Positions 7,041 to 30,696 are shown, counted from the stretch's first letter. The stretch is 64,000 bases of DNA from an uncultured Eubacteriales bacterium (GCA_964425745.1 CAYRNW010000006.1:1499-65498); one strand, 5' to 3'. Notes: generated by a model from the letters alone, not told the origin. Translations and numbers: made by a program.

Positions 7041-7104
7041 ATATAGTTACCTCACACATAAGGTAGGGTGGCAGAGAAATCCGCCACCCTTTTTGCCGTA
7101 CCTA

Positions 7105-9320: not shown

Positions 9321-9339
9321 CGTTGAAAAAATATTTTGC

Positions 9340-10119: not shown

Positions 10120-10200
10120 TTTTTACACATTTTTGTGTAAATGCATTGATTTTTGACTTGTTTTGCAGTACAATAAAAATGTTATATTTTACCTTAGGGC
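10120..10200. promoter_or_regulatory. Divergent intergenic region with a palindromic operator-like site TTTACACA-ttttt-TGTGTAAA and TTGACT -35-like box
   Basis: 8-bp inverted repeat around 10125-10145. TTGACT at about 10157. Lies between divergently transcribed sigma-like gene and the Nbr1-FW gene. Confidence 0.3.
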
Positions 10201-10311
10201 AATTTTGATATCCGTTCCCTCCATCTGAGATAAGGATATCAAGACACGAAGGTACAAGAAATTACTCTGGGACGGTACATCTGGTACAAAATCCGGTACA
10301 ACAAAAGCGAG

Positions 10312-11157: not shown

Positions 11158-11182
11158 TGCTGGATATTTGGAGGATATAAAC

Positions 11183-11383
11183 GTGAGCGATAAAAGCATT
11201 GAAAAATGGTCTACATTAAAAGAAGTACAAGAATATCTCGGTGTCGGCCGCGAGACCATTCTGCAATGGATCGCAAAAAGAAATATGCCCGCCTATAAGG
11301 TAGGCAGGCTCTGGAAATTCAAACTGTCCGAGGTTGACGACTGGATTCGTTCGGGCGGCGCTGACGACAGGAATGCAGAATAA
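11183..11383 (+). CDS. Excisionase/AlpA-like MerR-type HTH DNA-binding protein
   Basis: 66 aa with LKEVQEYLGVGRETILQWIAKRNMPAYKVGRLWKF. GGAGGA SD 7 nt before GTG 11183 (the ORF-track TTG at 11168 lies in the SD). Confidence 0.6.
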   Translation: MSDKSIEKWSTLKEVQEYLGVGRETILQWIAKRNMPAYKVGRLWKFKLSEVDDWIRSGGADDRNAE

Positions 11384-11478
11384 GTCCGTTTTATGGGACA
11401 GGCCAAAATTTAGAATTAGCGTGTGGCATTATAGCCAAAATCGCAAATATAAAAGCGAAAAGGATAGGGTGAAATACT

Positions 11479-13488: not shown

Positions 13489-14834
13489 GAGCATATAGTG
13501 AATATTGCCGTGTTGATGCTGAGTGGCTTGGCTCTCTCCCTTCACATTGGGATTGCAAAAAGATTGGAGCTTTGTTTTCACAACGAAAAGAAAAAGTCTC
13601 CGATAAAGACTTTGCACCACTTTCTGTTACGAAAAATGGTATTTTGCCACAACTATCAAATGCGGCAAAATCAAATGATGGAGACAACCGAAAACTTGTA
13701 CGCGCGGGAGATTTTGTAATTAACAGTCGCTCCGACCGAAAAGGTTCTTGTGGAGTGTCGTTTCTTGATGGCTCTGTTTCTCTCATAAACATTGTGCTGA
13801 CACCACGACAAGATTGGAATAGCAGGTATGTACATTATCTTCTTCGTAGTCATCTTTTTTCCGAAGAATACTATCATTACGGGAGAGGCATAGTTGCTGA
13901 TCTTTGGACAACAAGATACAGCGAAATGAAAAACATATATCTTCCCGTACCACCATGTGCCGAACAAGACCAGATTGTACGCTATTTGGATTGGCAGGTT
14001 TCAAAAATAAACAAGCTTATAAAAGCAAAGAAAAAGCAAATTACTTTACTTGATGATCTGAAGCGCTCGGTTGTGAACGATGCTATTACTCATGGCCTTA
14101 ATCCGAATGTAGAAATGAAGTCTAGTGGTGTTGTATGGCTTGGAGATATTCCTGCCCACTGGACAACCATAAAACTTAGACAAATACTAACACCTGTAAG
14201 TATTAAGAACCACCCAGAACTACCTCTTTTATCTGTTGTCCGTGAGAAAGGTGTGATTATTAGGGATGTTGAGGATAAAGACAGCAACCATAATTACATA
14301 CCAGATGACTTGAGTGGCTACAAAATGGTAAAAAAAGACCAATTTGCTATGAATAAAATGAAGGCATGGCAAGGGTCATATGGTATATCTAATTATACAG
14401 GTATTGTAAGTCCAGCATATTACATCTTCAACGTAGCTTTTGATAATCTTAAGTATTTCCATTATGCTATCAGAAGCAAAGTTTATGTAAATTTCTTTGC
14501 ACAGGCATCCGATGGTATTCGAGTAGGTCAGTGGGATTTATCTATTCCCAAAATGAAGGAAATTCCATTCATCGTTCCACCAGAGGATGAACAGAAAGCT
14601 ATTGTCGAGTATATACCTAAAGCTTGCGCTAAATATGATGCAGGAATAACGCGATTGACAGAGGAAGTTGCACTTTTGGAAGAATATAGAGCAAAGCTTA
14701 TTTCCGATGTTGTCACCGGTCAGATTGATGTTCGTGGCATTGAAATCCCGGAATATGAGTATGTAGAAGAATCCGATGAAGAGTCCGACGAGATGGACGG
14801 TGCGGACGAAGAAGCGGAAGAACAGGAGGAATGA
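13485..14834 (+). CDS. hsdS: Type I restriction-modification specificity subunit S (two target-recognition domains), unusual acidic C-terminal tail
   Basis: ATGA overlap with hsdM. Two TRD/conserved-repeat architecture. Tail EESDEESDEMDGADEEAEEQEE. Confidence 0.9.
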   Translation: MRAYSEYCRVDAEWLGSLPSHWDCKKIGALFSQRKEKVSDKDFAPLSVTKNGILPQLSNAAKSNDGDNRKLVRAGDFVINSRSDRKGSCGVSFLDGSVSLINIVLTPRQDWNSRYVHYLLRSHLFSEEYYHYGRGIVADLWTTRYSEMKNIYLPVPPCAEQDQIVRYLDWQVSKINKLIKAKKKQITLLDDLKRSVVNDAITHGLNPNVEMKSSGVVWLGDIPAHWTTIKLRQILTPVSIKNHPELPLLSVVREKGVIIRDVEDKDSNHNYIPDDLSGYKMVKKDQFAMNKMKAWQGSYGISNYTGIVSPAYYIFNVAFDNLKYFHYAIRSKVYVNFFAQASDGIRVGQWDLSIPKMKEIPFIVPPEDEQKAIVEYIPKACAKYDAGITRLTEEVALLEEYRAKLISDVVTGQIDVRGIEIPEYEYVEESDEESDEMDGADEEAEEQEE

Positions 14835-17804: not shown

Positions 17805-17826
17805 CGACTTGTACGGGAGGAAAAAC

Positions 17827-18753
17827 ATGAGTGGAGTGTTGGCTAAAACATTAAAAAAGAAAAGCACAGACGGCATTTTTGTTGAGGTTCATCATACCGA
17901 GAGCCTTGGCTTGTGCATGCCTGAACAACTGCGCCTTTTCCATTTGGCCCTGCGCAACAACAGGTTTTATTCCGGCGATTTAGAAACCATGCTGTATCGT
18001 AATATTGGTCGCTACGTCTTTTCCCGTGCAAAACTTGAAGATTTTAAGCTTGAAGACGACCTCGATTCCGTCACTGCACAAGCCTTGAGGATTATGCGCG
18101 AAAACGGAGCCGCAGATACAAAGGGCTGTGGCAACGAACTCGGCGAAATGCTTGTTTATACTTTCTTGGAGGACATGCTCGGTGCCCCAAAACTAATGAG
18201 TAGAGTGGAATTATCGACTGAATTATCACAGTTCGGCAGCGAATGTGAAAGCATTCATCTATTTACTCCGGGTTTAGAGCAGCGTTGCCAGATGGTGTTC
18301 GGCGCGTCCAATGTCGTCGGTGAAATTAAGGATGCTATTGACCGTTCATTTGAAACTATTCTCCGTATTGAAAAGCATGAAGCTCGCGAGATCAAAATGG
18401 TCGAGAAAACAATTCTTGACCGCGCATTTGACCCGGGTGAAATCGAACTTATCAAAGATATTATTTTGCCGTCTCCAGGAAAAACTCCAAGCTATAACAC
18501 TGCGTATGGCGTTTTCCTTGGATACTCTATCGGTCTGTCTTCCGAGGGACGCACATCAGAAGAATACGAGAACTTAGTAATGCAAAAAATGGCATACGAT
18601 ATAAAGCAGCACGCTAAGTACATAGCCGAGAAGATTCACGCGAACCACCTTGACTCACACTCGTTTTATTTTTACATCCTGCCCTTTGACGATGCAGAAG
18701 CCGAGAAAAAGGCCATTATGGAGAATGTAATGAAGGGGGATGTTATGTTATGA
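17827..18753 (+). CDS. hamA: Hachiman-like HamA (DUF1837-like) protein
   Basis: About 308 aa with no other recognisable domain. Its stop overlaps (ATGA) the start of a large DExH helicase, the canonical HamA-HamB arrangement. GGGAGG SD before ATG 17827. Confidence 0.55.
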   Translation: MSGVLAKTLKKKSTDGIFVEVHHTESLGLCMPEQLRLFHLALRNNRFYSGDLETMLYRNIGRYVFSRAKLEDFKLEDDLDSVTAQALRIMRENGAADTKGCGNELGEMLVYTFLEDMLGAPKLMSRVELSTELSQFGSECESIHLFTPGLEQRCQMVFGASNVVGEIKDAIDRSFETILRIEKHEAREIKMVEKTILDRAFDPGEIELIKDIILPSPGKTPSYNTAYGVFLGYSIGLSSEGRTSEEYENLVMQKMAYDIKQHAKYIAEKIHANHLDSHSFYFYILPFDDAEAEKKAIMENVMKGDVML

Positions 18754-21413
18754 GTGCTTCAGCAAAGATAAATCTTGGTGATGCCATCTTTAATGGTATT
18801 GAGGAGAATCCATTTCTGAATGAACTCTATGATAACATACTCTATAATTATGCGCTGAAAAAATTCGAACTGACATCCAGCAGGCAGTCCAGAGAGGTTG
18901 ATATTGCTTCAGCCCTTAGGTTTGCCGATTTGCTTTCTAAATCAACGTGTCCCCAAAATAAAGACAAACACAAAATGTGGGCGCAGGAAATAGTAGTACT
19001 CTTGCATGAGCTTTACCCGGAAAATGAAGACGTGAGTATGGTTGCCGGATCTGTCCTTTCATACACCGGGAATTATCAAGGACAAAAAATTATCAAGAGC
19101 AACTATCAAGCCCCTTCTGCACTTGAAAGAGTATTTACAGAATTTCAGAGTCATTATCTTACAATACCCGCTGAACCGGACTTGCGTTTTTTTGGCGCGC
19201 AGAAGAATGTATATGATCACTTGGACGACCCCTATTTCAGCTATTCTGGTCCGACTTCTATGGGTAAATCTTTTATTATGCGGATGTTCATGAAGGAGCA
19301 GGTCAAGCAAGGCGCAACTAAAAACTTTGCATTGATTGTTCCTACAAAAGCGTTGATAAATGAAAATAGAAGCCAAATTATTAATGATTTGAAAGAATAC
19401 CTGCAGCAGCGTAATTATCGTGTGATTACTGCTGCTGGCGATTTGGCTCTTGAGGGGCGACACAACTTTATTCTTGTGCTTACACCGGAAAGATTGTTGT
19501 ATCTTCTTATCAGCAAGCCGGATTTGCAGATCGATTATGTATTTATCGATGAAGCGCATAAACTATCCGGTAAAAACAGCAGAGGTCCTTTCTACTATAA
19601 AGTTGTTGATATGCTGATTAAGCGACAACATAAGCCGCATATTATTTTTGCATCACCTAATATTCCTAATCCTGAGGTGTATCTGAGGCTTCTTTCAGAA
19701 AAGACAAATGCTAATAATAGGTTGCGGTCGACATTTTCACCGGTTGCGCAAATCAAGTTTTTAATTGACCTAAATACCCATACTATCAGCGCATACAACG
19801 ATTACGCCGAGGAACTGATGCACCTTGCAACCATTCAGAAATCAGATGCTACGCTGATTGATTTTCTCAGAATGTTCGAAGTGGTTAATATAAAGCAAAT
19901 ACCGGAAAATCGCCAGCAGACTATTGTGTACTGTAATGGAAAAAGCAAAGCAATTGAATTGGCGCGTGAGTTTTCAAAATTTCTTCCAGAAAGCGGAGAT
20001 AAAGAGCTTGATGATTTATCACGGGATATCCGCAACGAGGTTCACGGGGAGTACTATTTAACAGAAGTAATAAAAAAGGGTGTTGCCTACCACATAGGGT
20101 ATTTACCTTCAGCTATTCGTATGCGAATCGAGGACATGTTCCGCAAGGGCAAGATAACCATCATGTTTTGTACAAGCACCCTTTTAGAAGGCGTTAACCT
20201 TCCTGCAGATAATCTATTCATCACCGATTTCAAGATAAATCGGTCAATCATGACGCCCGTTGACTTCAGAAATCTGATCGGCCGTGTTGGACGCATACGG
20301 TTCAACTTATATGGAAATGTGTTCTTTGTTGCTCAAGGCGACAAAATTACAGAGAAGGATTATGTTGAACTGTTGCAGGCTCCAATCCCGGATCAAAAGC
20401 TGTCAATTGAATCCGGAAAAACGGGCCTGCAGGAAGCCGAGAAAAAATACATAGTATCCAAGCTGCTTGCCGGTGATATTGAAATTGAAAAGCGTAATAC
20501 CAGCCAATCGGAAGAAGCACATACAATGATGCGGAAATTTGCGCTTATATTACTTCGTGATATTTTAGAAAACAGAAACAGCTTGGTAAGACGTGAATTT
20601 TCTGCTTTATTAACTACAGCGGATGAGAATAAAATTAGAGAGAATTTCCAAGAATCCGCTTCCCTGCTCGATGATGATATAAATATATCTGTGGACCAGG
20701 CACAAAACCTGTCCGCGGCTATTGAATTCGGTCTTAAGTACCCGGAACGTGTGGACGGGCATTTCGTTTATGATGATGTGCTTGCCTTCCTTGAGAAGCT
20801 GTGCAGAATTTTTAAATGGAAAAAGTATGAGTATACGTCTCTTGGAAAAGTTAGTGAAAATGGCCAGTTTGCATTGCTTCGCTGGTATGCAGTAATCCTT
20901 ATTCAGTGGATGGAAGGTACCGGTTTGAGCAGTATCATGAAAAAGGCCATTGAATACCGAGAGACACATCCTGATAATTTCTGGATCAACAAGTACCAGA
21001 AAACCCGATATAACGGTACAACAGAACATAAGAATATCGTCTTTGCAGATACCTTGGAGGTAATTGAGAATACGATCCTTTTTAGTATTTCCAATTATTT
21101 CCTTCGCTTTTCAAATGAGTATAAGCGTATACACCAACTCACGGAGTTTGAAAACAATTGGTACGAATTTGTTGAGTATGGCACGACAAACCCGCTAACA
21201 ATCCTGCTGCAACGAAACGGTTTTTCTCGCGAGGTTTCAACTTATATTAAGTCACATCAGGCTGATTTTGTCGTAACCATACCATCCGGTGAATTACGGC
21301 TAAGCCGAGCATTGCTATCATGCAGTAATATCAATGCCTGTAATGAGGCACGGGATATACAATATAATATGCCCGAATTATTTGTCGCAGATGGCTGCGA
21401 TATAGAAATATAG
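18750..21413 (+). CDS. hamB: Hachiman-like HamB DExH-box helicase
   Basis: Helicase motifs GPTSMGKSF (I), FIDEAHKL (II), and GRVGRIR (VI), with a long C-terminal extension. Translationally coupled to the upstream DUF1837-like gene. Confidence 0.65.
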   Translation: MSASAKINLGDAIFNGIEENPFLNELYDNILYNYALKKFELTSSRQSREVDIASALRFADLLSKSTCPQNKDKHKMWAQEIVVLLHELYPENEDVSMVAGSVLSYTGNYQGQKIIKSNYQAPSALERVFTEFQSHYLTIPAEPDLRFFGAQKNVYDHLDDPYFSYSGPTSMGKSFIMRMFMKEQVKQGATKNFALIVPTKALINENRSQIINDLKEYLQQRNYRVITAAGDLALEGRHNFILVLTPERLLYLLISKPDLQIDYVFIDEAHKLSGKNSRGPFYYKVVDMLIKRQHKPHIIFASPNIPNPEVYLRLLSEKTNANNRLRSTFSPVAQIKFLIDLNTHTISAYNDYAEELMHLATIQKSDATLIDFLRMFEVVNIKQIPENRQQTIVYCNGKSKAIELAREFSKFLPESGDKELDDLSRDIRNEVHGEYYLTEVIKKGVAYHIGYLPSAIRMRIEDMFRKGKITIMFCTSTLLEGVNLPADNLFITDFKINRSIMTPVDFRNLIGRVGRIRFNLYGNVFFVAQGDKITEKDYVELLQAPIPDQKLSIESGKTGLQEAEKKYIVSKLLAGDIEIEKRNTSQSEEAHTMMRKFALILLRDILENRNSLVRREFSALLTTADENKIRENFQESASLLDDDINISVDQAQNLSAAIEFGLKYPERVDGHFVYDDVLAFLEKLCRIFKWKKYEYTSLGKVSENGQFALLRWYAVILIQWMEGTGLSSIMKKAIEYRETHPDNFWINKYQKTRYNGTTEHKNIVFADTLEVIENTILFSISNYFLRFSNEYKRIHQLTEFENNWYEFVEYGTTNPLTILLQRNGFSREVSTYIKSHQADFVVTIPSGELRLSRALLSCSNINACNEARDIQYNMPELFVADGCDIEI

Positions 21414-21430: not shown

Positions 21431-24013
21431 ATGGATAAAGCATATCAATGGGTGCCATTTTATGAGGCACTCGCCGATAAATTGCTTACATACAGCGATA
21501 AACGGGATGAACTCTTTGCTTTAATGAAAAAGCTTTCATCGGAGCAGCCGCTGATGAAATATCTCCACTTCGAGCGTGAAGACTGGTGGGAACCCCGCCA
21601 TCATCAAATCGATCCGTTTTCTGTGATTGGAGTTATGAATCGCGGAACAACAGATGCAAACCGTATTGTCTTAGCCAAGGTACTCGCAAACGCATTTGAC
21701 ATACAGATTCCTTCGCCTACGCAGTTTGCGGGTATACCTGTACTCAATAACATGAACTCATTTTTTAATGGAACAAATGAATTATGGGAGCTGTTTTGCC
21801 TTGCAATAAAATCCGCTGAAACCGGTGAGTTTTCAGACAAATTTAAAAAAGCATTCGATGACGCCATTGCAGTATCTGGAAATGGACTGGCTTATATTAC
21901 GATGGGCTTGTATTGGATTCGGCCACATGTTTTTATGCCTCTTGATGGCAATTCGCGTGCTTATATTTCTACACATTTCGGTGTATCTGCACCAAGCGGA
22001 AACTGTAGTGGTGAAGAATACGTAACTTTTTTGAATACACTCAAAACGAAAATCCATGAGCAGGCGCCTGACCTGACATTACCTGAAATTTCGTATACTG
22101 CTTGGACGAAGAAGGATGCCAATTCGCTCGACGGTACAAGCACAACTACCGCAGTCGTTGATGAGAAACGGCAGCGGGCGGCATTTATACAATGGTATAC
22201 GAATAATGTTGGTTCGTCTAATTCTGCTAATACCATCGCGGTTGCTATCGGTAAAGCACGGCTTAAAAGCGGACGAGCAGTGTTTGCTATTGCTGATTTT
22301 AATGAACTTGATTCTGCGATCAAGAGCAGCGGCCTTGAAGGGTATTTTCAAGCCAGCGGTGGCGATTACTCAAAGATGGATATAGTTTTTGACATTGATC
22401 CAACTACCCAACGTGATGACTTGAAAAGTGGAATCAAGCACTATCTCAGTTTTCTTAAAAGCATAGGAGAATTAAGTTCATCAAGCGGAACAATTGTCCC
22501 GCCGAATATAGCATCACGGCAGACTGGCGGGGCAAAAATGGCAAAAAACATAATTCTCTATGGTACTCCTGGAACAGGAAAAACCTATAGTACAGTGCAG
22601 TATGCTGTTGCCATTATTGAGGAGAAGTCGATCGCGGAGGTAAAATCTGAAGATTACGGAGAAGTATTCAATCGTTACTTAAAATATAAAGATGACGGAC
22701 TGGTCGCTTTTACCACATTTCACCAATCGTTTGGCTACGAAGAATTTATTGAGGGTATACGCCCGGTCGTGTCTTCGGAGGAAAAAGCAGAATCGGTACG
22801 CGAAATTGAATACGAAGTACATGATGGAATTTTCAAGGCATTTTGCGATAAAGCTGGAACACCTATTGGCGGCGGAACAAGTGTAGACTTAGGAATTGGT
22901 AAAAGCCCTACCGTCTGGAAGGTTTCACTTGAAGGTACAGGTGACAATCCTACAAGAGCCGAATGTATGGAGAATAATCATATCCGCATCGGATGGGACA
23001 GCTATGGCGAAACCATATCTGATGCTACAGATTACAGCAAGGATGGAGGCAGAACCGTTCTCAACGCATTTTACAACAGGATGCAAATCGGCGATATTGT
23101 TATGTCTTGTTATTCCAGCAAAACAATAGACGCGATTGGTGTTATTACTGGCGAACCAGAATGGCACGATGAGTATCAGAACTACAAACGGTTGCGTAAT
23201 GTGAAATGGCTTGTAAAGGGTATTAACGAAGATATCGTCGATTTCAATGCCGGAAAAGCTATGACGCTTTCATCTGTATACAAGTTATCAGTTTCAGTGT
23301 CAGATGCATTGCAAATACTTAGGAAAGTGAAGCCAAGCCTATTCACACAAAAGGTAAAAATTCCAAACCGTGTATTTATCATTGATGAGATCAATCGAGG
23401 GAATATCTCAAAAATATTTGGTGAATTAATTACCCTAATCGAGCCGTCAAAGCGCATAGGAGCAAGCGAACAGCTACGCGCTCTTTTGCCATACTCGGGC
23501 CAAAATTTTGGTGTGCCCGATAACGTCTACATCATTGGCACCATGAACACCGCCGACCGCTCTATCGCGATGATAGACACCGCGTTGCGCCGTAGATTTG
23601 AATTTATCGAGATGCAACCTGATTCTGCTACGCTTAAAGATGTTCTTGTTGACGGTATAGATATTGCTGAGATGCTCGACACCATCAACAAGCGTATAAC
23701 CGTATTGCTCGACCGTGAGCACACCATAGGACATTCCTATTTACTGCCGCTTAAAACAGACCCGACGATTGAAAATCTTGCGGCGATTTTTGAAAACAGA
23801 ATAATCCCGCTTTTGCAAGAGTACTTCTACGACGATTACGAGAAGATTCAGCTTGTATTGGGTGACAATCAGAAGCCGGATGATAGCACTCGCTTTATCG
23901 TGAAAAAGACAGATGCTGTTAAGCTGTTTGGAAACGCGGACGTTGATTTCCCGGAGTATTATGAGGTTAACAGCGAAGCTTTCATGAGGATTGATGCCTA
24001 TGCGTTCCTGTAA
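21431..24013 (+). CDS. mcrB: McrB-family GTPase (type IV restriction) with long N-terminal extension including a PUA/EVE-like modified-base reader domain
   Basis: AAA+/GTPase motifs NIILYGTPGTGKTY, VFIIDEINRGNISKIFGE and IIGTMNTADRSIAMIDTALRRRFEF. The upstream segment VWKVSL..IRIGW..FYNRMQIGDIVMSCYS..IDAIGVITGEP is EVE-like. Confidence 0.85.
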   Translation: MDKAYQWVPFYEALADKLLTYSDKRDELFALMKKLSSEQPLMKYLHFEREDWWEPRHHQIDPFSVIGVMNRGTTDANRIVLAKVLANAFDIQIPSPTQFAGIPVLNNMNSFFNGTNELWELFCLAIKSAETGEFSDKFKKAFDDAIAVSGNGLAYITMGLYWIRPHVFMPLDGNSRAYISTHFGVSAPSGNCSGEEYVTFLNTLKTKIHEQAPDLTLPEISYTAWTKKDANSLDGTSTTTAVVDEKRQRAAFIQWYTNNVGSSNSANTIAVAIGKARLKSGRAVFAIADFNELDSAIKSSGLEGYFQASGGDYSKMDIVFDIDPTTQRDDLKSGIKHYLSFLKSIGELSSSSGTIVPPNIASRQTGGAKMAKNIILYGTPGTGKTYSTVQYAVAIIEEKSIAEVKSEDYGEVFNRYLKYKDDGLVAFTTFHQSFGYEEFIEGIRPVVSSEEKAESVREIEYEVHDGIFKAFCDKAGTPIGGGTSVDLGIGKSPTVWKVSLEGTGDNPTRAECMENNHIRIGWDSYGETISDATDYSKDGGRTVLNAFYNRMQIGDIVMSCYSSKTIDAIGVITGEPEWHDEYQNYKRLRNVKWLVKGINEDIVDFNAGKAMTLSSVYKLSVSVSDALQILRKVKPSLFTQKVKIPNRVFIIDEINRGNISKIFGELITLIEPSKRIGASEQLRALLPYSGQNFGVPDNVYIIGTMNTADRSIAMIDTALRRRFEFIEMQPDSATLKDVLVDGIDIAEMLDTINKRITVLLDREHTIGHSYLLPLKTDPTIENLAAIFENRIIPLLQEYFYDDYEKIQLVLGDNQKPDDSTRFIVKKTDAVKLFGNADVDFPEYYEVNSEAFMRIDAYAFL

Positions 24014-25277
24014 TAAAACCTTCACTATAACAGAATACGGTGGGTTTACGCGCGGCATAGCGTCTTACGGTTATCAGGCATTGCCGGAAAAAACATTTGA
24101 TGCGCTTGAAGCTTTTATCCTCGCCAACAATACTGATACGGGAACCGAGGCAGTCGAGCTGCTGTCTCTTTCTGTTCGCCGAGGCATTGGCAAGATTATC
24201 ACCGCCAGAAATTACGTCGGGCTGATAACGATGGCTGACGGTACTGTCATAGAGATTCTCCCTAAAGTTATGGGCGGCGATATTACCGAGGAAGAGACGA
24301 AGCGAATTTTTCTCGAGATGCTAAAAACGCTAAAGGACGTGACATTTAAAGACTTCAATGTTTCAAATCTTCATGCTGACAACCTGAGCCTTCTCGATAT
24401 TTTTATAAAAATGTTTCTCGACGAGGTCACTATTCTAACAAAGCAAGGAATAAAAGCGGCATATACACCCGTCGAAGCAAATGAACGGTTCTATAAAGGG
24501 AAGCTGCTGGCTTCACAGAATATTAAATATAATCTGGTTAACAAGGAACGATTTTTTGTTCGCTACGACGATTTCAATATAAACAGACCGGAGAACCGTC
24601 TGATCAAGTCCACACTACGTTTCCTGCGCAATACTTCAAATGACGGGCGTAACCGACAGAACGCAACCCGATTAATAAATTTCTTTGATGGTGTGGAATA
24701 TTCCAAAAACTATGATTTGGACTTTTCAAAGTGTATTGTCGACCGCAGCATGAGCCACTACGACAAGGCTCTTTCGTGGTGTCGCGTTTTCTTGCGAGGA
24801 AATAGCTTCACCGCCTTTGCAGGAAGCGAGGTTGCTCTTGCTCTTCTTTTTCCAATGGAAAAGGTGTTCGAGAGTTTTGTTGCTGCGAAGTTTCGCAAGC
24901 ACATTGGTAGTGGTGTTACCTTGCGGACACAGGATGCCAGATACAGTCTGTTTGATAGTCCGGCCCGAGCTTTTTCCCTTCGTCCTGACATTGTGTTAGA
25001 ATTTGACGGCCGTACAGTAGTTCTGGATACCAAATGGAAGCTGCTCTCAGACAATGCCAGAAACAGCGGTATTTCACAAACTGATATGTACCAGATGTAT
25101 GCTTACGGCAAAAAGTATGAAGCAGACAAAATTGTCTTGCTGTATCCCTATTCCGATGCTGTGCGCAAAACTGATATCAGGTATGCCTCAGATGACAATG
25201 TAAAGGTCGATGTTACCTTCATTGACCTTAAGAATGCGGATAACAGTATTTCGAAACTATTAGGGGAGGTGTGCTAA
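24000..25277 (+). CDS. mcrC: McrC-family nuclease subunit (PD-(D/E)xK)
   Basis: RPDIVLEFDGRTVVLDTKWK catalytic motif. Overlaps the mcrB 3' end. Start chosen at the ATG 9 nt after GAGGA (alternatives 23991 and 23994). Confidence 0.8.
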   Translation: MRSCNKTFTITEYGGFTRGIASYGYQALPEKTFDALEAFILANNTDTGTEAVELLSLSVRRGIGKIITARNYVGLITMADGTVIEILPKVMGGDITEEETKRIFLEMLKTLKDVTFKDFNVSNLHADNLSLLDIFIKMFLDEVTILTKQGIKAAYTPVEANERFYKGKLLASQNIKYNLVNKERFFVRYDDFNINRPENRLIKSTLRFLRNTSNDGRNRQNATRLINFFDGVEYSKNYDLDFSKCIVDRSMSHYDKALSWCRVFLRGNSFTAFAGSEVALALLFPMEKVFESFVAAKFRKHIGSGVTLRTQDARYSLFDSPARAFSLRPDIVLEFDGRTVVLDTKWKLLSDNARNSGISQTDMYQMYAYGKKYEADKIVLLYPYSDAVRKTDIRYASDDNVKVDVTFIDLKNADNSISKLLGEVC

Positions 25278-26308
25278 TGCCATTTACCATCGTCCGTCAG
25301 GACATAACAAAAATGAAAGTTGACGCTATAGTCAACGCTGCCAACACCGACCTGCAAATGGGCGGTGGGGTTTGTGGAGCTATCTTCAAAGCGGCGGGAG
25401 CGGCACAGCTTCAAGCTGCCTGTGATAAACTCTCCCCGATTAAAACGGGTGAGGCGGTTATTACATCAGGATTCGACCTGCCCGCTAAGTTTGTTATTCA
25501 CGCGGCAGGCCCCGTTTATAGATATCAGAATACCGAGCAGAGTGAAAAACTACTACGTTCCGCATACATGGAGTCGCTCCGGCTTGCCATCGAAAACAAC
25601 TGTGAAAGTATTGCGTTCCCATTGATTTCAAGCGGGATTTACGGATACCCAAAAGACGAAGCCCTTCAAGTGGCTACTGCTGCAATTCAAGATTTTCTCA
25701 TCAACAACGATATTGATATAACACTTGTAGTGTTTGATAAATCGGCATTTACTGTAAGCCGCGAGCTGCTCGGTGAAGTCGAAAGCTACATAGATGAGCA
25801 TTACGTTGATATACACCAAATAAAGCGTCGGAAGCTGCTTGATGTAGAACGCCAAGCCATATCCGAAGCTGATGAGCGTGCTAGTATACTCAACGAGCCT
25901 ATTCTTGAAGATATGCTCGCTCCTATTGGCGCTCCTGCCCCGCTTGATGATTTAGTTGGCAATCTTGATGAGCCATTCTCTCAGATGCTCCTGCGTCTGA
26001 TTGATGCCAAAGGAATGACGGATGTTGAAGTATACAAACGTGCCAACCTTGACCGAAAATTATTCTCTAAGATCAGAAGCAACAAAGGATATATGCCAAG
26101 CAAGCGCACAGCTATTGCTCTTGCTGTAGCGCTGAAGTTATCTCTCGACGAAACCGACGACCTCTTGGAACGAGCGGGCTATGCACTATCTCACGCCGTC
26201 AAATTCGATGTTATTGTGGAGTACTTCATCGCAAACGGTAAGTACGATGTTTTTGCGATCAATGAAGTGCTGTTTGAATACGACCAGCCGCTGTTGGGAG
26301 GGTGCTGA
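25277..26308 (+). CDS. Macro-domain (ADP-ribose binding/processing) protein fused to C-terminal XRE-like HTH domain
   Basis: Macro signature AIVNAANTDLQMGGGVCGAIF and ISSGIYGYP. C-terminal MTDVEVYKRANLDRKLFSKIRSN..SKRTAIALAVALKLSLDETDDLLERAGYAL is HTH_XRE-like. TAATG overlap with the mcrC stop. Confidence 0.75.
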   Translation: MPFTIVRQDITKMKVDAIVNAANTDLQMGGGVCGAIFKAAGAAQLQAACDKLSPIKTGEAVITSGFDLPAKFVIHAAGPVYRYQNTEQSEKLLRSAYMESLRLAIENNCESIAFPLISSGIYGYPKDEALQVATAAIQDFLINNDIDITLVVFDKSAFTVSRELLGEVESYIDEHYVDIHQIKRRKLLDVERQAISEADERASILNEPILEDMLAPIGAPAPLDDLVGNLDEPFSQMLLRLIDAKGMTDVEVYKRANLDRKLFSKIRSNKGYMPSKRTAIALAVALKLSLDETDDLLERAGYALSHAVKFDVIVEYFIANGKYDVFAINEVLFEYDQPLLGGC

Positions 26309-26310
26309 TT

Positions 26311-26766
26311 ATGGATTATGTTTATGAAATAGATTCACTAATTCAAAAAGCTACATTAGCAATTGGTAAACCAATTTTTAAGGACAAGTATGAAATCGTT
26401 GATAGAGGTTTACCGCATATTCCACCTACTCGATTGCCTGATGGGAAGATGGCAATCTACATGTTTTTGCTCGGTGACGAATTTCTAAAAATCGGAAAAG
26501 CTAATTATAGAAGTAATGCAAGATTCTGCAGTCAACATTATGGTTTGAATGCACCATCAACACTTGCAAAATCACTGCTTTCGGATAGTGAGATGCGCAG
26601 CTTAAACATTACTTCTTCAAATATAAAAAATTGGATTAAAACGAATTGCCGACGAATCGACATAATTATTGATGCAGACTTAGGTGTTTTTGCTTTGGAA
26701 TTGATTGAGGGGATAATGCATTATAAATATGAACCCAGATATGAGGGTTTTGCATCTCAAAGGTAA
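26311..26766 (+). CDS. Small GIY-YIG superfamily (T5orf172/MUG113-like) protein
   Basis: AIYMF-(10)-LKIGKA-NYRSNARF..QHYG resembles GIY..YIG..R of the T5orf172 domain. GGGAGGG SD 8 nt before ATG 26311. Begins 3 nt after the macro-HTH stop. Confidence 0.5.
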   Translation: MDYVYEIDSLIQKATLAIGKPIFKDKYEIVDRGLPHIPPTRLPDGKMAIYMFLLGDEFLKIGKANYRSNARFCSQHYGLNAPSTLAKSLLSDSEMRSLNITSSNIKNWIKTNCRRIDIIIDADLGVFALELIEGIMHYKYEPRYEGFASQR

Positions 26767-26769
26767 TTT

Positions 26770-26786
26770 GTCGCTTCTGAAGCGAC
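26770..26786 (+). promoter_or_regulatory. Perfect hairpin GTCGCTTC-t-GAAGCGAC between GIY-YIG gene and vWA gene (weak terminator/processing site, no U-tract)
   Basis: 8-bp inverted repeat read directly. No T-run follows. Confidence 0.3.
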
Positions 26787-26845
26787 CGCCGGTCTCAAGT
26801 AAAGTAGTATTCTAAGATTACAATAAATCTTAGGAGGCTACCAAA

Positions 26846-27499
26846 ATGAAAAAGGGATTAACTGAACTGGTATTCATACTCGACAAAAGTGGCTCAATGA
26901 GCGGACTGGAAGCTGACACTATTGGTGGTTACAATTCAATGCTCGCAAAGCAGAAGGCAGTAGATGGTGAGTGCTACATTACAACGGTGTTGTTTGATAA
27001 CAACTATGAGCTACTCCATGACCGTATTGACATTAAAGCAGTCAGCCCGATTACTGACAAAGAATATCAGGTTGGCGGATCGACAGCACTTCTTGATGCA
27101 ATCGGCAGAACGATTCACAAAATTGGTAACGCTCAAAAGCACACTGCCGAAGATTACCGCGCCGAAAAGGTAATGTTTGTAATTATCACAGATGGCGAGG
27201 AAAACTCTAGTCGTGAATATACTGCCGAAAAGATCAAAGCACAGATTGAGCGGCAAAAAGAAAAGTATGGTTGGGAGTTTATCTTCCTTGGGGCTAATAT
27301 CGATGCGGTTCAGACCGCCGGGAGGTATGGAATTGCTCCTGACAGGGCAATTGACTATCTAGCTGATAGCGAAGGTACGGAACTGAACTTTAAGGTAATG
27401 GCAAGTGCTGTGGCGACATTTCGCGAGTCGGGAACGGTTGACGAGACTTGCTTTGAGGAAATCCGCAAGGATGTGAAGCGTCGAGGAGGTCGTAAATAA
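26846..27499 (+). CDS. von Willebrand factor type A (vWA) domain protein
   Basis: MIDAS motif VFILDKSGSMSG at the N-terminus. 217 aa. TAGGAGG SD. Confidence 0.8.
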   Translation: MKKGLTELVFILDKSGSMSGLEADTIGGYNSMLAKQKAVDGECYITTVLFDNNYELLHDRIDIKAVSPITDKEYQVGGSTALLDAIGRTIHKIGNAQKHTAEDYRAEKVMFVIITDGEENSSREYTAEKIKAQIERQKEKYGWEFIFLGANIDAVQTAGRYGIAPDRAIDYLADSEGTELNFKVMASAVATFRESGTVDETCFEEIRKDVKRRGGRK

Positions 27500-28350
27500 T
27501 GCTCGGAGCGATTATAGGAGATATCGTAGGCTCGGTCTACGAATGGCATAACATTAAAACAAAAGACTTCCCGCTGTTCCGCGACGACTGCTTTTTCACG
27601 GATGACACCGTGATGACCATTGCTACAGCAGACGCTCTAATGAGCGGCGTTAAAGCCGACGATTTCATTAATGCCTATAAAAAGTGGGGGCGATTCTACC
27701 CAGATGCCGGGTACGGTGGTCGCTTCGGCAGTTGGATACATTCTAATGACCGTAAACCCTACAACTCTTGGGGTAATGGTTCGGCGATGAGAGTATCACC
27801 TTGCGCTTGGGTGATGAATTGCGGATTCTATGGGCGTACAGGTTGTTGGCCATCAAACGGTTGGGAATGTGTAACAAAATCTGCTGAGGTGACGCATAAC
27901 CACCCTGAAGGAGTCAAAGGCGCACAAGCTACCGCAGTAGCGATATTTTTGAGCCGGTTCTACGCCGGAGGTCACGCCTTCGATTATTGCCAGCCGTGGT
28001 CGGTTGAAGAATTGAAAGATGAAATAAAAAAACTGATAGAATCTAATTTTGGATATGATCTATCCCGGACGCTTGACGAAATTCGTCCAATTTACCGCTT
28101 CAATGAAAGCTGTCAGGATACGGTACCACAGGCGATTATTGCTTTCCTTGAAAGTATGGACTTTGAGGATGCAATCCGAAATGCTATCTCCCTCGGAGGT
28201 GACAGCGACACGCTTGCTGCTATTACCGGTAGCATTGCAGAAGCCGCCTATGGTGTGCCAGATTGGATAAGGGACAAGGCTTTGAGTTATCTGGACGCAC
28301 CGTTGAGAGATGTCTATAATCGGTGGACATCATACATAGAGAACAATTAA
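27499..28350 (+). CDS. ADP-ribosylglycohydrolase (ARH/DraG family)
   Basis: N-terminal GAIIGDIVGSVYEW, GNGSAMRVSP, and C-terminal GGDSDTLAAITGSIAEAAYG, all ARH family hallmarks. TAATG overlap with the vWA gene. Confidence 0.85.
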   Translation: MLGAIIGDIVGSVYEWHNIKTKDFPLFRDDCFFTDDTVMTIATADALMSGVKADDFINAYKKWGRFYPDAGYGGRFGSWIHSNDRKPYNSWGNGSAMRVSPCAWVMNCGFYGRTGCWPSNGWECVTKSAEVTHNHPEGVKGAQATAVAIFLSRFYAGGHAFDYCQPWSVEELKDEIKKLIESNFGYDLSRTLDEIRPIYRFNESCQDTVPQAIIAFLESMDFEDAIRNAISLGGDSDTLAAITGSIAEAAYGVPDWIRDKALSYLDAPLRDVYNRWTSYIENN

Positions 28351-28420
28351 AATTATGGGAGTGAAATAGGGAGCAATTTATAGCGATTTTCTTTGACGTT
28401 TAAGAGCTAAAACAATAATG

Positions 28421-28514
28421 TTGACATATTCCCGCGAACGAGCAAAAAACGTTGACCTGTTTCCGCGAACAGATAATACCCATAAAAACCATGCTCGACC
28501 TATTCCCGCGAACG
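28421..28514. repeat. Three direct repeats of a 20-bp unit TTGAC(A/C)TNTTYCCGCGAAC(G/A)
   Basis: Copies at 28421-28440, 28452-28471 and 28495-28514, spaced 31 and 43 bp. Confidence 0.7.
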
Positions 28515-28722
28515 TGCAAAATGAAAAATACAGACCAGACATCGGGATGAGCCTATCGTTCCATGTTGAGACGGTAGTCTGGATGTCAAGGGTGGTGAAG
28601 TAGAGCAAAAAGGTGCTGATAATCGCTGAAAAAGAACCATTTTGAGTGGAAATTCATGAAAAATATTGCATGGTTTCCGAGTAAGTGGGAACACATCCAA
28701 TTTAGTGATTTTTGTTTGACAG

Positions 28723-30036: not shown

Positions 30037-30696
30037 ATGTCAATTGTTACTGTAGATTTCGATGGAACTTTATATAAGCATAATTCTGTAAAGGCGATGC
30101 TTAAAGCCGGAAAGAAAGTATTTACTTTAAAGCAATGGAGTTTAATAGCCATAAATTTTCTTTCCGGTTGTGTAAATAGAGATAAAGGAGATAAAATAGA
30201 CCTTCGAGTTATTTTACTAAAATCGTTTTTTTACCAAATGAAAGGAAAAAGCGTTGAAGAAATGCATGCGTTTTTTGGGGCCATACTCAATACGGATCGT
30301 CAGAATATTAATTATAACTTGGTGTTAAGAATAAAGAATCATTTGGAAATGGGAGATCGCGTGATCATTTTATCGGGAGCCTTGCAACCTTTTCTTGAAG
30401 AAGTTATACGGCAGCTGGGAATTCGGGCAGATGCAATTGGGACCTCTTTACTTTATGATGAGAGTGGAATCTGTACAGGTGAAATCGGTAGAATAAACCG
30501 TGGAACTGATAAAGTAGAAAAATTGAAGCTTTGGATAGAGGAAAATGATGCCAGCGGAGAACCGCTTTGGGCATATGCAGATAGCGAATCAGATATTCCT
30601 CTACTGGAATTTGCAGATAAGGCAGTTGTTGTTAACCCGACAGAAACAATGAAAAAAATTGCTGAATCAAAGGGATGGGAAATTTTTATTAACTAG
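30037..30696 (+). CDS. HAD-superfamily hydrolase (HAD-IB/phosphoserine phosphatase-like)
   Basis: Motif I VDFDGTL at the N-terminus. 219 aa. Confidence 0.7.
   Translation: MSIVTVDFDGTLYKHNSVKAMLKAGKKVFTLKQWSLIAINFLSGCVNRDKGDKIDLRVILLKSFFYQMKGKSVEEMHAFFGAILNTDRQNINYNLVLRIKNHLEMGDRVIILSGALQPFLEEVIRQLGIRADAIGTSLLYDESGICTGEIGRINRGTDKVEKLKLWIEENDASGEPLWAYADSESDIPLLEFADKAVVVNPTETMKKIAESKGWEIFIN

What the first reader, a model, noticed from the sequence alone, without database searches (positions are those of the whole stretch)
21431..26766. McrBC variant translationally fused into a four-gene string with a macro-domain/HTH protein and a GIY-YIG (T5orf172-like) protein
mcrC's stop overlaps the ATG of a macro-domain protein (TAATG). 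That protein also carries an XRE-type HTH and runs 25277-26308. It is followed 3 nt later by a 151-aa GIY-YIG-superfamily protein with its own strong SD. Canonical McrBC is a two-gene system. A macro-domain (ADP-ribose binding/processing) regulator plus a standalone nuclease module coupled to it is not a described arrangement. Possible roles are an ADP-ribose(-derivative) sensing switch for the type IV system, or an independent DarG-like antitoxin/effector pair that has lost or replaced its transferase. The McrB itself has a long N-terminal region (aa 1-480) with a PUA/EVE-like reader and an unassigned first 230 aa.
Basis: partly seen in the sequence, partly recalled or inferred. Interest (0 to 1): 0.8.

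Follow-up and report, generated by a model that had tools for sequence, protein, structure and literature searches.

The report
Macro-HTH/vWA/ARH cassette beside McrBC
The genes are real, but the macro-domain regulator and the small nuclease are not McrBC accessories: they belong to a separate, widespread and uncharacterised ADP-ribose-handling cassette of mobile elements in Clostridia that has a swappable cargo slot and happens to sit next to McrBC here.

Summary
The sequence features are real. mcrC ends in TAATG with the start of a 343-aa protein made of a MacroD-type macro domain plus an XRE-type HTH. Two nt later comes a 151-aa protein with a GIY-YIG fold.

The four-gene unit is not real. 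The whole hsdM-to-ARH array (11 genes, at least three independent known systems) is packed with gaps of 79 nt or less.

In about 150 related loci only three families recur:
- **Recurring families:** vWA (137 loci), macro-HTH (110) and ARH (52).
- **Linkage:** macro-HTH lies upstream of vWA in 99 of 109 loci, and vWA follows macro-HTH in 18 of 18 independently sampled loci.
- **Slot between them:** empty in 25 of 55 contexts. Otherwise it holds one of at least 15 unrelated cargos, the GIY-YIG gene being one.
- **McrC as upstream neighbour:** only 6 of 44 neighbour families.

A conserved leader precedes vWA: an invariant palindrome plus a covarying hairpin that sequesters the Shine-Dalgarno sequence.

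The best reading is an autonomous ADP-ribose sensing and erasing cassette carried by prophages and ICEs. The closest described concept is the computationally predicted "ARG-centric" systems. The function is inferred, not shown.

The parts
21431..24013 (+). McrB-like GTPase (860 aa). This is a neighbouring, separate type IV restriction system. It has an N-terminal region of about 365 aa and an insertion of about 170 aa (about aa 475-643) inside the AAA+ domain.
   Evidence: AAA_5 3.8e-12 and NCBIfam McrB 7e-37. It aligns to T. gammatolerans McrB in three pieces: q373-474, q644-736 and q745-818. A near-identical homologue carries precomputed Pfam DUF8425, DUF8426 and McrB_lid.
24000..25277 (+). 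McrC (425 aa from ATG 24000; the ORF is open from 23991). It overlaps the mcrB 3' end, and its stop overlaps the macro-HTH ATG.
   Evidence: PF10117 4.1e-92. Sequence read. Gene call in the identical locus L004.
25277..26308 (+). Macro-HTH protein (343 aa). It has a MacroD-type macro domain (aa 1-165), a low-complexity linker, and an XRE-type HTH plus a conserved C-terminal helical extension (aa about 230-343). It is the first conserved gene of the cassette.
26311..26766 (+). 151-aa GIY-YIG-fold protein occupying the variable cargo slot of the cassette.
26767..26845 (+). Conserved leader of vWA. It has an invariant palindrome/hairpin 1, GTCGC-N7-GCGAC (26770-26786), and hairpin 2 (26804-26841), whose 3' arm sequesters the Shine-Dalgarno sequence GGAGG (26833-26837).
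   Evidence: Present whatever gene precedes it. Found in 69 of 89 unique upstream sequences. Folding gives dG -24.3, z -3.7. In hairpin 2, 9 of 15 pairs show compensatory changes; 84% of cells are paired against 38-47% in slid controls; 0 of 500 shuffles reach the covariation score. No Rfam match.
26846..27499 (+). vWA protein (217 aa, YegL/TerY-like, with an intact MIDAS motif DxSGS…T…D). It is the second conserved gene of the cassette.
   Evidence: VWA 3.6e-4 and vWA-TerF-like 6.4e-4, both sub-threshold. phrog_7371 2e-57. More than 8000 homologues, many at 85-98% identity across Clostridia. Follows macro-HTH in 18/18 macro-seeded loci.
27499..28350 (+). ADP-ribosylglycohydrolase (283 aa, DraG/ARH family). 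Its start overlaps the vWA stop (TAATG). It is a frequent third gene of the cassette.
   Evidence: PF03747 1e-34. phrog_6572 6e-54. The motifs GDxxGS, TDDT and GGDSDT can be read in the translation. Present in 52 of 148 loci, almost always 0-5 nt after vWA.
28351..28595 (+). Conserved non-coding 3' element with three direct repeats of about 37 nt (TTGACn-TnTTCCCGCGAAC…). Its role is unknown.
   Evidence: 72-82% nucleotide identity in at least 18 loci, with or without ARH. Alignment A6.

Best explanation
Two separate things abut here, inside a co-directional defence island carried by a phage-like element.

(1) mcrBC is an ordinary two-gene type IV restriction system with an elaborated McrB.

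(2) Starting exactly at the mcrC stop is an autonomous cassette: macro-XRE-HTH, then a cargo slot, then a structured leader, then vWA, then ARH.

Proposed working, all of it inferred:
- The macro-HTH protein is a one-component regulator. Its MacroD-type domain binds or hydrolyses ADP-ribose or ADP-ribosylated substrates. Its XRE HTH binds a conserved palindrome, either GTCGC-N7-GCGAC in front of vWA or the TTCCCGCGAA boxes after ARH.
- vWA and ARH are kept low by the hairpin that sequesters the Shine-Dalgarno sequence.
- When ADP-ribosylation appears, from an invading phage's ADP-ribosyltransferase or from a toxin, the module is expressed. ARH and the macro domain then strip ADP-ribose from macromolecules, while vWA acts as the MIDAS-dependent substrate-binding partner.
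- The slot carries optional effector or repair genes. Here that is a GIY-YIG nuclease. Elsewhere it is GmrSD-like, EEP or DUF4268 nucleases, a Y-family polymerase with YolD, an AlkD-like glycosylase, FMN reductase, or unknowns.
- McrBC is a neighbour brought in by recombination at gene boundaries, not a partner.
For: Shown:
- Domain identities.
- Among 148 related loci only vWA (137), macro-HTH (110) and ARH (52) recur.
- Macro-HTH lies upstream of vWA on the same strand in 99/109 loci. vWA lies downstream in 18/18 loci found independently through macro-HTH.
- The slot is empty in 25 of 55 distinct contexts. Otherwise it holds at least 15 different gene sets, nearly all co-oriented.
- Both outer flanks vary: there are 44 upstream families.
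- An identical macro-HTH protein sits behind McrBC in some places and behind DUF4357 in others.
- No ADP-ribosyltransferase or sirtuin is found in the cassette.
- The leader is conserved in all contexts, and its Shine-Dalgarno-sequestering hairpin covaries.
- The cassette is carried by mobile elements. The window has a phage replication module, recombinases and structural genes. There are 28 + 25 IMG/VR loci. T4SS/MobL genes or serine recombinases lie nearby in several loci. vWA and ARH have PHROG families.

Conceptual precedent: Iyer et al. 2022 (PMC9503650, section 3.8) predicted 'ARG-centric' systems. These combine ARG, a sensor-HTH transcription factor and a chaperone such as vWA, with variable Macro/NADAR and nuclease effectors and no coupled transferase. 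They are proposed to reverse viral ADP-ribosylation.
Against: - No experiment bears on function. PADLOC has no model for any of the four proteins.
- ARH is present in only about a third to a half of loci, so an ARH-centred logic cannot be the universal core. The invariant core is macro-HTH plus vWA, for which no mechanism is known.
- The cargo set is heterogeneous (FMN reductase, translesion polymerase, DNA glycosylase). That fits a recombination hotspot as well as it fits an 'effector slot'.
- Whether the HTH binds either conserved palindrome is untested. Hairpin 1 shows no covariation, so RNA and DNA roles cannot be told apart.
- The direction of benefit (host or prophage defence versus counter-defence by the mobile element) is not resolved.
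- McrC is nevertheless the single most frequent upstream neighbour.
Confidence: 0.55

Rival explanations
1. Backbone genes of a mobile element flanking a cargo hotspot, acting in counter-defence. In this reading, macro-HTH, vWA and ARH are conserved accessory genes of Clostridial prophages and ICEs that serve the element itself. They would erase ADP-ribosylation imposed by host defences such as DarT-like enzymes, or degrade ADP-ribose-derived immune signals. Their high sequence conservation would simply provide homology anchors between and around which unrelated cargo, including McrBC and the GIY-YIG gene, is swapped. The cargo would have no functional tie to the flanking genes.
For: - Prophage and ICE contexts.
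- 85-98% protein identity across different families of Clostridia and even Synergistota.
- Cargo of unrelated function: FMN_red, PolY with YolD, AlkD-like, DUF1643, DUF5131.
- Cargo boundaries fall exactly at the macro-HTH stop and at the leader palindrome.
- Mosaic identity within the block: ARH 72% while the neighbouring genes are 97-100%.
- According to PMC9503650, phage Macro and ARG domains are thought to counter host ADP-ribose signals.
Against: - The cassette sits in the midst of defence genes on the same strand, not in an early or leading region.
- It also occurs in apparently chromosomal, non-mobile contexts such as R. cellulolyticum H10.
- The dedicated regulator fusion and the conserved translational leader suggest a conditionally expressed system rather than constitutive early counter-defence.
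Confidence: 0.25
2. One reading: a four-gene McrBC variant in which macro-HTH acts as an ADP-ribose-sensing regulator and GIY-YIG as an extra nuclease, both functionally coupled to McrBC.
For: - The TAATG overlap is kept in three diverged McrBC alleles: the window and L004/L077, L015, and L097/L158.
- McrC is the commonest upstream neighbour, in 6 distinct contexts with four different slot contents. GmrSD-like type IV enzymes account for 3 more.
- A distant GIY-YIG homologue lies two small genes after McrBC in a Chloroflexota MAG.
Against: - 38 of 44 upstream families are not McrC.
- An identical macro-HTH protein follows DUF4357 after Hachiman.
- 16 of 18 macro-seeded viral loci lack McrBC, and all 18 lack GIY-YIG.
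- A 35-nt spacer replaces the overlap in other McrBC loci.
- The same degree of packing joins type I R-M, Hachiman and McrBC, which are independent systems.
Confidence: 0.08
3. A DarTG-like toxin-antitoxin pair in which the GIY-YIG nuclease is the toxin and macro-HTH is its antitoxin and autorepressor.
For: - The two genes are only 2 nt apart.
- Macro domains are the antitoxins of DarTG (established knowledge).
Against: - Macro-HTH occurs without the GIY-YIG gene in most contexts, including 25 with an empty slot.
- The GIY-YIG family occurs alone, for example between the tail chaperone and tape measure genes of Bacillaceae prophages.
- The macro domain is MacroD-type, not DarG/TARG1-type.
- A nuclease toxin gives a macro domain nothing to reverse.
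Confidence: 0.06

Closest known systems
'ARG-centric' systems predicted to counter viral ADP-ribosylation (Iyer, Burroughs, Anantharaman, Aravind 2022, Viruses 14:1977, section 3.8; a computational prediction only)
   Same: - An ADP-ribosylglycohydrolase with no coupled transferase.
- A one-component sensor-HTH regulator.
- A vWA 'chaperone'.
- Optional Macro domains and optional nuclease effectors.
- A conserved core with variable accreted modules.
- Location among defence genes.
   Different: - The sensor is a Macro domain fused to the HTH, not Nudix or WYL.
- No phosphatase partner is present.
- The nuclease here is GIY-YIG, not a REase fold.
- The invariant core is macro-HTH plus vWA, and ARH is dispensable (present in 52 of 137 vWA loci).
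- The lineage is Clostridia and their prophages or ICEs, rather than actinobacteria, planctomycetes and proteobacteria.
- There is a conserved structured leader before vWA.
- Homology of this ARH to the ARG clade of that paper was not tested.
DarTG toxin-antitoxin/defence system
   Same: A macro-domain protein encoded in a defence island. ADP-ribose removal is the presumed chemistry.
   Different: - No DarT (DUF4433) or any other transferase is present.
- The macro domain is MacroD/YmdB-type.
- The C-terminal domain is an XRE HTH, not a DarT-binding domain.
- The constant partner is a vWA protein.
Canonical McrBC (E. coli; T. gammatolerans)
   Same: The McrB AAA+ GTPase signature and the McrC PF10117 domain are present. 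The two genes overlap in a two-gene operon.
   Different: McrB has a different N-terminal region of about 365 aa and an insertion of about 170 aa within the AAA+ domain. Nothing indicates that the downstream genes belong to it.
Variable defence/cargo hotspots flanked by conserved genes in P2-like prophages and P4-like satellites (Rousset et al. 2022; cited from my own knowledge)
   Same: Conserved flanking genes of a mobile element bracket a slot. The contents of the slot, often defence genes, differ between otherwise near-identical elements.
   Different: The flanking genes here are themselves an ADP-ribose-related regulator and vWA pair with a dedicated leader. The slot is frequently empty. 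The host range is Clostridia.
GIY-YIG nuclease superfamily (UvrC N-domain, T4 EndoII, Eco29kI, PD-T4-3; T5orf172/MUG113 branch)
   Different: No Pfam GIY-YIG, T5orf172 or MUG113 profile detects any of 56 family members. The protein has an extra N-terminal helix-strand unit with an invariant PHxPP motif. Nuclease activity is untested.

Membership tests
McrBC type IV restriction system | McrB AAA+ GTPase with the McrB signature motifs, and McrC with the PF10117 / PD-(D/E)xK domain, encoded together | tested here: met
   NCBIfam McrB 7e-37. PDB T. gammatolerans McrB 9e-57 and E. coli McrB 4e-33. PF10117 4e-92. The genes overlap.
McrBC type IV restriction system | Additional genes (macro-HTH, GIY-YIG) are constant companions of this McrBC subfamily | tested here: not met
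   McrC is the upstream neighbour in 6 of 55 distinct contexts and 1 of 44 neighbour families. An identical macro-HTH protein occurs without McrBC. The reverse survey, seeded on McrBC, was not done.
ARG-centric anti-ADP-ribosylation systems (predicted, PMC9503650) | ARG/ARH domain gene without a genomically coupled ART or sirtuin | tested here: met
   PF03747 1e-34. No ART or SIR2 hit in any cassette protein or in the immediate neighbours.
ARG-centric anti-ADP-ribosylation systems (predicted, PMC9503650) | One-component transcription factor with a Nudix or WYL sensor fused to an HTH | tested here: not met
   A sensor-HTH fusion exists, but the sensor is a MacroD-type macro domain. It is functionally analogous, not the defined domain.
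ARG-centric anti-ADP-ribosylation systems (predicted, PMC9503650) | Peptide-binding chaperone gene (vWA, SseB or TY-chaperone) | tested here: met
   vWA with an intact MIDAS motif directly upstream of ARH, with overlapping stop and start.
ARG-centric anti-ADP-ribosylation systems (predicted, PMC9503650) | Coupled phosphatase (rhodanese-phosphatase, calcineurin-like, HD or HAD) in about 55% of systems | tested here: not met
   None in the cassette. The HAD gene at 30037-30696 is not conserved with the cassette in other loci.
ARG-centric anti-ADP-ribosylation systems (predicted, PMC9503650) | ARG is the conserved centre of the system | tested here: not met
   ARH is present in 52 loci against 137 for vWA and 110 for macro-HTH. 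Many complete loci lack it.
DarTG | DarT (DUF4433) ADP-ribosyltransferase toxin adjacent to the macro antitoxin | tested here: not met
   No DUF4433 or other ART hit. The 151-aa neighbour has a GIY-YIG fold.
DarTG | DarG/TARG1-type macro domain | tested here: not met
   The best NCBIfam and PDB matches are O-acetyl-ADP-ribose deacetylase, MacroD and YmdB.
GIY-YIG superfamily | The alpha/beta GIY-YIG fold with catalytic Tyr, Arg and Glu | tested here: met
T5orf172 (PF10544) / MUG113 family | Match to the family profile | tested here: not met
   0 of 56 members match at E<=5. No PHROG hit.
XRE/Cro-C1 HTH transcription regulators | Five-helix Cro/C1-type HTH domain | tested here: met
   The fold is met. 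Pfam profiles are only sub-threshold, with best E 1e-3. DNA binding was not tested.
Known RNA families (Rfam 15) for the vWA leader | Match to a covariance model | tested here: not met
   No meaningful hit at E<=10 in 25000-28600.

The most novel reading that the evidence does not exclude
The macro-HTH/vWA(/ARH) cassette is an uncharacterised, very widespread immune (or counter-immune) hub of Clostridial mobile elements. A macro-domain transcription factor senses ADP-ribosylation or ADP-ribose-derived signals. Through a new cis-regulatory leader it switches on a vWA-ARH eraser pair together with whichever interchangeable effector occupies the slot: a GIY-YIG, GmrSD-like, EEP or DUF4268 nuclease, a membrane protein, or a translesion polymerase. 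That would make it a modular 'sensor plus plug-in effector' architecture built around ADP-ribose.
Probability: 0.25. Interest if true: 0.8.

Novelty: new variant of a known kind. Interest (0 to 1): 0.55.

Why it matters
ADP-ribosylation is a major currency of phage-host and toxin conflicts, yet host- or prophage-encoded systems that reverse foreign ADP-ribosylation are only predicted, not demonstrated.

This cassette is abundant. It is highly conserved across Clostridia and sits in defence islands of prophages and ICEs.

It offers three concrete handles for testing such a function:
- a Macro-HTH regulator;
- a covarying leader that sequesters the Shine-Dalgarno sequence;
- a natural series of slot variants.

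It also marks a recombination slot where new defence or repair genes can be mined.

For annotation practice, it is a caution that overlapping stop and start codons in densely packed islands do not define systems.

Tried and rejected
- **PDB searches for the HTH domain.** phmmer and profile searches found nothing useful. This was resolved by the structure model.
- **Exact look-up of the window's macro-HTH protein.** It is not on record, so a 97%-identical protein was used instead.
- **First genome scan.** The 56-sequence alignment was too diverse. The scan was repeated with 17 sequences.
- **RNAalifold on the leader.** It recovered only hairpin 1. Hairpin 2 had to be supplied by hand and tested by pair counting.
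- **Rfam.** No family for the leader.
- **Simple promoter and terminator scans.** No more sites than in shuffled sequence inside 21-29 kb.
- **Other copies of the GTCGC-N7-GCGAC box in the window.** Only the one copy, plus a 1-mismatch chance-level hit at 53116.
- **afdb50 fold library.** Unavailable.
- **Ideas considered and rejected.**
  - The 151-aa protein as a hidden ADP-ribosyltransferase: its fold is GIY-YIG.
  - The leader as a NAD+ riboswitch: no Rfam match.
  - The slot as an integron-like attC cassette: there is no integrase, and the palindrome is present even when the slot is empty.
- **Not used.** The representative-protein search and a survey seeded on McrBC.

Full report
1. WHAT IS IN THE SEQUENCE

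The region lies in a long co-directional array on the + strand:
- hsdM 11479-13488, hsdS 13485-14834 and hsdR 14838-17804;
- Hachiman HamA 17809-18753 and HamB 18750-21413 (PADLOC 1e-123 and E=0);
- McrB 21431-24013 and McrC 24000-25277;
- a 343-aa macro protein 25277-26308;
- a 151-aa ORF 26311-26766;
- a 217-aa vWA protein 26846-27499;
- a 283-aa ADP-ribosylglycohydrolase (ARH) 27499-28350 (Pfam).

Every junction from hsdM to ARH is an overlap or a gap of 79 nt or less.

The vWA/ARH junction is also TAATG. The macro-to-151 gap is 2 nt, and a GGGAGGG Shine-Dalgarno sequence precedes the 151-aa gene. Simple scans find no more promoter- or terminator-like sites inside 21-29 kb than in shuffled sequence.

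Type I R-M, Hachiman and McrBC are established independent systems, yet they are packed just as tightly. Overlap alone therefore says nothing about functional units here.

2. DOMAIN CHECKS

**McrBC.**
- McrC matches PF10117 at 4e-92.
- McrB matches NCBIfam McrB (7e-37) and the solved T. gammatolerans and E. coli McrB proteins (9e-57 and 4e-33).
- The alignment to T. gammatolerans McrB comes in three pieces: residues 373-474, 644-736 and 745-818.
- The AAA+ domain therefore begins near residue 365. The extra module at about 475-643 is an insertion inside the AAA+ domain, not part of a 480-residue N-terminal region.
- Its PUA/EVE nature remains unverified. The only support is a PADLOC PDC-S02 similarity at 529-601.
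- A near-identical homologue carries precomputed Pfam DUF8425, DUF8426 and McrB_lid.

**Macro-HTH.**
- The Macro domain matches at 5.6e-42.
- It is MacroD/YmdB-type, with an NAAN…GGGV…GIYGYP signature. The best solved relatives are D. radiodurans DR_2288, MACROD2 and YmdB.
- The C-terminal domain gives only sub-threshold HTH_3/19/26/31 hits, both for the window protein and for 8-11 of 15 diverse relatives.
- The XRE HTH is therefore supported at fold level.

**151-aa protein.**
- No library recognises it.
- None of 56 family members hits GIY-YIG, T5orf172 or MUG113 at E<=5.
- The AF2 model is confident (pLDDT 94).
- The best BFVD hit is a phage GIY-YIG protein.
- Y50, R71 and E133 are invariant. 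The second Tyr is replaced by K60, in the motif 'LKIGKA'.

**vWA and ARH.**
- vWA keeps a MIDAS motif (DKSGSM…GGST…TDGEEN) that can be read directly in the translation.
- ARH keeps the GDxxGS, TDDT and GGDSDT motifs.
- PADLOC has no model for any of the four cassette proteins.

3. COMPARATIVE EVIDENCE: WHICH GENES BELONG TOGETHER

(a) One protein 97% identical to the window's macro-HTH was found in 10 places.
- Wherever the contig reaches far enough, it is followed by the 151-aa, 217-aa (vWA) and 273-aa (ARH) genes.
- Upstream there is either McrBC (3 places) or a DUF4357 gene behind a different Hachiman (6 places).
- Downstream of ARH the genes vary too, for example BREX-like genes or IS110.

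(b) A genome scan seeded on the 151-aa family gave 45 loci.
- Only homologues of at least 76% identity sit in the macro/vWA block.
- At 58% identity or less the family is found elsewhere. One example is Bacillaceae prophages, between a tail-chaperone-like gene and the tape measure gene (PHROGs).

(c) vWA homologues are extremely numerous and conserved. More than 8000 candidates were found, at 85-98% identity across Ruminiclostridium, Marasmitruncus, Hydrogenoanaerobacterium, Anaerovoracaceae and Dehalobacterium. Their contexts show these arrangements:
- Macro341, FMN_red and vWA in R. cellulolyticum H10;
- Macro343 directly followed by vWA, then LigB and Pirin;
- Macro, a 439-aa protein, vWA and ARH;
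- Macro, a 428-aa protein, DUF4268, vWA and ARH next to T4SS and MobL genes.

(d) Metagenome and viral scans seeded on vWA added 108 loci.
- Of 109 loci with at least 1.6 kb upstream of vWA, 99 have the macro-HTH C-domain upstream on the same strand.
- The distance from the macro-HTH stop to the vWA start ranges from 74 nt to 4.2 kb. At the long end the interval holds 1-4 almost always co-oriented genes.
- Clustering all ORFs of 148 loci shows only three recurrent families: vWA in 137 loci, macro-HTH in 110 and ARH in 52. Next come the GIY-YIG family (23), McrC (13) and McrB (9).
- Collapsing to distinct (upstream, slot, downstream) contexts gives 55.
- The slot is empty in 25 of them. It holds GIY-YIG in 7, and otherwise one of the following:
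  - FMN reductase;
  - a 439-aa membrane protein;
  - a 224-242-aa unknown protein;
  - a 510-aa protein with a Y-family polymerase and YolD;
  - an AlkD-like DNA_alkylation protein;
  - DUF262/GmrSD-like proteins;
  - DUF4268, DUF4238, DUF5131 or DUF1643 proteins;
  - an EEP nuclease;
  - ARH itself.
- The direct upstream neighbour belongs to 44 different families, 40 of them on the same strand, with gaps from -16 to 1133 nt.
- McrC is the most frequent upstream neighbour, in 6 contexts with four different slot contents. Next come a GmrSD-like gene (3 contexts) and DUF4357 (2).

(e) An independent viral scan seeded on macro-HTH was also run. All 18 loci with room downstream carry vWA. None carries GIY-YIG, and 2 carry McrBC.

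(f) Upstream of the macro-HTH ATG nothing is conserved except the Shine-Dalgarno sequence. The TAATG junction recurs in three diverged McrBC alleles but is replaced by a 35-nt spacer in others.

**Conclusion.** The conserved unit is macro-HTH, then a slot, then vWA, with or without ARH. The GIY-YIG gene is slot cargo. McrBC is one of many upstream neighbours.

4. A CONSERVED LEADER AND A CONSERVED 3' ELEMENT

**Leader of vWA.**
- The 79 nt before vWA (26767-26845) are conserved whatever gene precedes them.
- The leader has an invariant GTCGC-N7-GCGAC palindrome (26770-26786). It is present in 69 of 89 unique upstream sequences, with constant 7-nt spacing.
- About 17 nt further on lies a hairpin (26804-26841) whose 3' arm contains the Shine-Dalgarno sequence.
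- The RNA folds at -24.3 kcal/mol, z -3.7.
- On 40 distinct sequences, hairpin 2 has 9 of 15 pairs with compensatory changes. Overall, 84% of cells are paired, against 38-47% when the partners are slid. No shuffle of 500 reaches the covariation score.
- More distant loci keep an anti-SD/SD pairing with unrelated sequence.
- Hairpin 1 never covaries, so it may equally be a DNA operator.
- There is no Rfam match.

**3' element.**
- The 245 nt after the ARH stop (28351-28595) are 72-82% identical in at least 18 loci, with or without ARH.
- They contain three repeats of about 37 nt. Each has a TTCCCGCGAA quasi-palindrome between -35-like and -10-like boxes.

Either element could be the HTH target. 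This was not tested.

5. GENOMIC SETTING

The window layout is as follows (GC content):
- a phage-type replication module at 1-10 kb (VapE-like, PolA, Enc34-type SSB, DUF2800; minus strand);
- the defence island at 11-28 kb;
- four low-GC host-like genes at 28.9-33.4 kb;
- two large serine recombinases at 35.4-38.9 kb;
- phage tail, capsid, portal and terminase genes at 40-59 kb.

Related loci are often IMG/VR contigs. They lie beside a phage head-morphogenesis gene, serine recombinases, or T4SS coupling protein and MobL relaxase genes. vWA and ARH have PHROG families.

The cassette is therefore cargo of prophages and ICEs. It also occurs in seemingly chromosomal contexts.

6. MECHANISM

**Shown:** gene linkage, domain identities, absence of a transferase, the covarying Shine-Dalgarno-sequestering leader, and the variability of the slot.

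**Inferred:**
- Macro-HTH is a one-component regulator whose macro domain senses or hydrolyses ADP-ribose or ADP-ribosylated substrates.
- vWA and ARH are conditionally expressed. Together with the macro domain they remove ADP-ribose from macromolecules modified by an extrinsic transferase.
- The slot genes are optional effector or repair add-ons.

This mirrors the logic proposed for 'ARG-centric' systems in PMC9503650 section 3.8. Those combine ARG without a coupled ART, a sensor-HTH transcription factor and a vWA or other chaperone, with variable Macro/NADAR and nuclease effectors.

There are clear differences:
- the Macro domain is the sensor fused to the HTH;
- there is no phosphatase;
- ARH is dispensable, while macro-HTH plus vWA is the invariant pair;
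- the lineage is different.

I give this reading 0.55.

The main rival (0.25) is that the conserved genes serve the mobile element itself, as counter-defence against ADP-ribose-based host immunity, and merely anchor a recombination hotspot. The heterogeneous cargo and the extreme cross-taxon conservation fit that reading equally well.

The McrBC-accessory model (0.08) and a macro-HTH/GIY-YIG toxin-antitoxin pair (0.06) are disfavoured by the linkage statistics.

7. NOVELTY AND VERDICT

No paper in the library mentions McrBC together with macro domains. The only related text treats prophage macro and ARH genes as possible antitoxins or predicts ARG-centric systems.

The finding as written, a four-gene McrBC variant, is not what is there.

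What is there is an abundant, uncharacterised cassette. I file it as a new variant of a predicted kind. It has two features I could not find described: a Macro-XRE fusion tightly linked to a YegL-like vWA gene across a variable cargo slot, and a covarying leader.

Interest is 0.55. It is well above ordinary because the replacement is widespread, testable and bears on an open question, namely how cells or their prophages reverse foreign ADP-ribosylation.

**Caveats.**
- Most loci were ascertained through vWA or through near-identical proteins.
- Many are short metagenomic contigs.
- ORF calling in my scripts was a longest-ORF heuristic.
- No survey seeded on McrBC was run.

Noticed in passing
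window 26767-26845: Conserved structured leader in front of vWA. It has an invariant GTCGC-N7-GCGAC palindrome plus a covarying hairpin that sequesters the Shine-Dalgarno sequence. It is present in all slot contexts and has no Rfam family. It is a candidate new cis-regulatory element or operator.
   Followed up: partly
window 28351-28595: Non-coding stretch after ARH, conserved at 72-82% in at least 18 loci even when ARH is absent. It contains three direct repeats of about 37 nt, each with a TTCCCGCGAA quasi-palindrome between -35-like and -10-like boxes. In L015 it abuts a serine recombinase gene. It may be an operator/promoter array or the boundary of a mobile element.
   Followed up: partly
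window 21431-24013 (McrB aa ~475-643 and aa 1-365): McrB carries an insertion of about 170 aa inside its AAA+ domain, between the FHQS…DGIFK segment and Walker B. It also has an unassigned N-terminal region of about 365 aa (DUF8425 and DUF8426 in newer Pfam). The fold and any modified-base reader function were not determined.
   Followed up: partly
window 1-10000 and 35361-58642: A phage replication module (VapE-like, PolA, Enc34-type SSB, DUF2800), two large serine recombinases and a full set of structural and packaging genes flank the island. The whole window may be one phage or phage-plasmid carrying an 18-kb defence island, or two adjacent prophages.
   Followed up: partly
L005 7378-9281: The GIY-YIG/vWA/ARH block is inverted relative to macro-HTH. 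The breakpoints lie 30 nt into the GIY-YIG ORF and at the ARH stop. This is either a real inversion or a metagenome mis-assembly.
   Followed up: partly
L020-L023, L035 (~9300-13200): Homologues of the 151-aa GIY-YIG protein (55-58% identity) sit as single genes between a tail-chaperone-like gene and the tape measure gene of Bacillaceae prophages. This is a classic moron position.
   Followed up: yes
L051 5008-10351: In a Chloroflexota MAG, McrB (865 aa) and McrC (443 aa) are followed by two small ORFs and a 43%-identical GIY-YIG homologue, with no macro or vWA gene. This is an isolated second co-occurrence of this nuclease family with McrBC.
   Followed up: partly
L001 2916-7023; L002/L003/L005: In sister loci the Hachiman upstream of the cassette is a different allele (about 41-50% identity). 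In L001 its HamA carries an N-terminal TIR domain. It is followed by a 302-aa DUF4357/RAMA-like gene instead of McrBC.
   Followed up: no
L012 (JAHKLX010000061.1): A cassette with 84-94% protein identity to the window's macro-HTH, GIY-YIG and vWA proteins lies on a contig binned as 'Candidatus Micrarchaeota archaeon'. The likely causes are mis-binning or a recent transfer.
   Followed up: no
L175, L180: In these viral contigs ARH occupies the slot between macro-HTH and vWA instead of following vWA. A second macro-HTH paralogue lies a few genes downstream.
   Followed up: no
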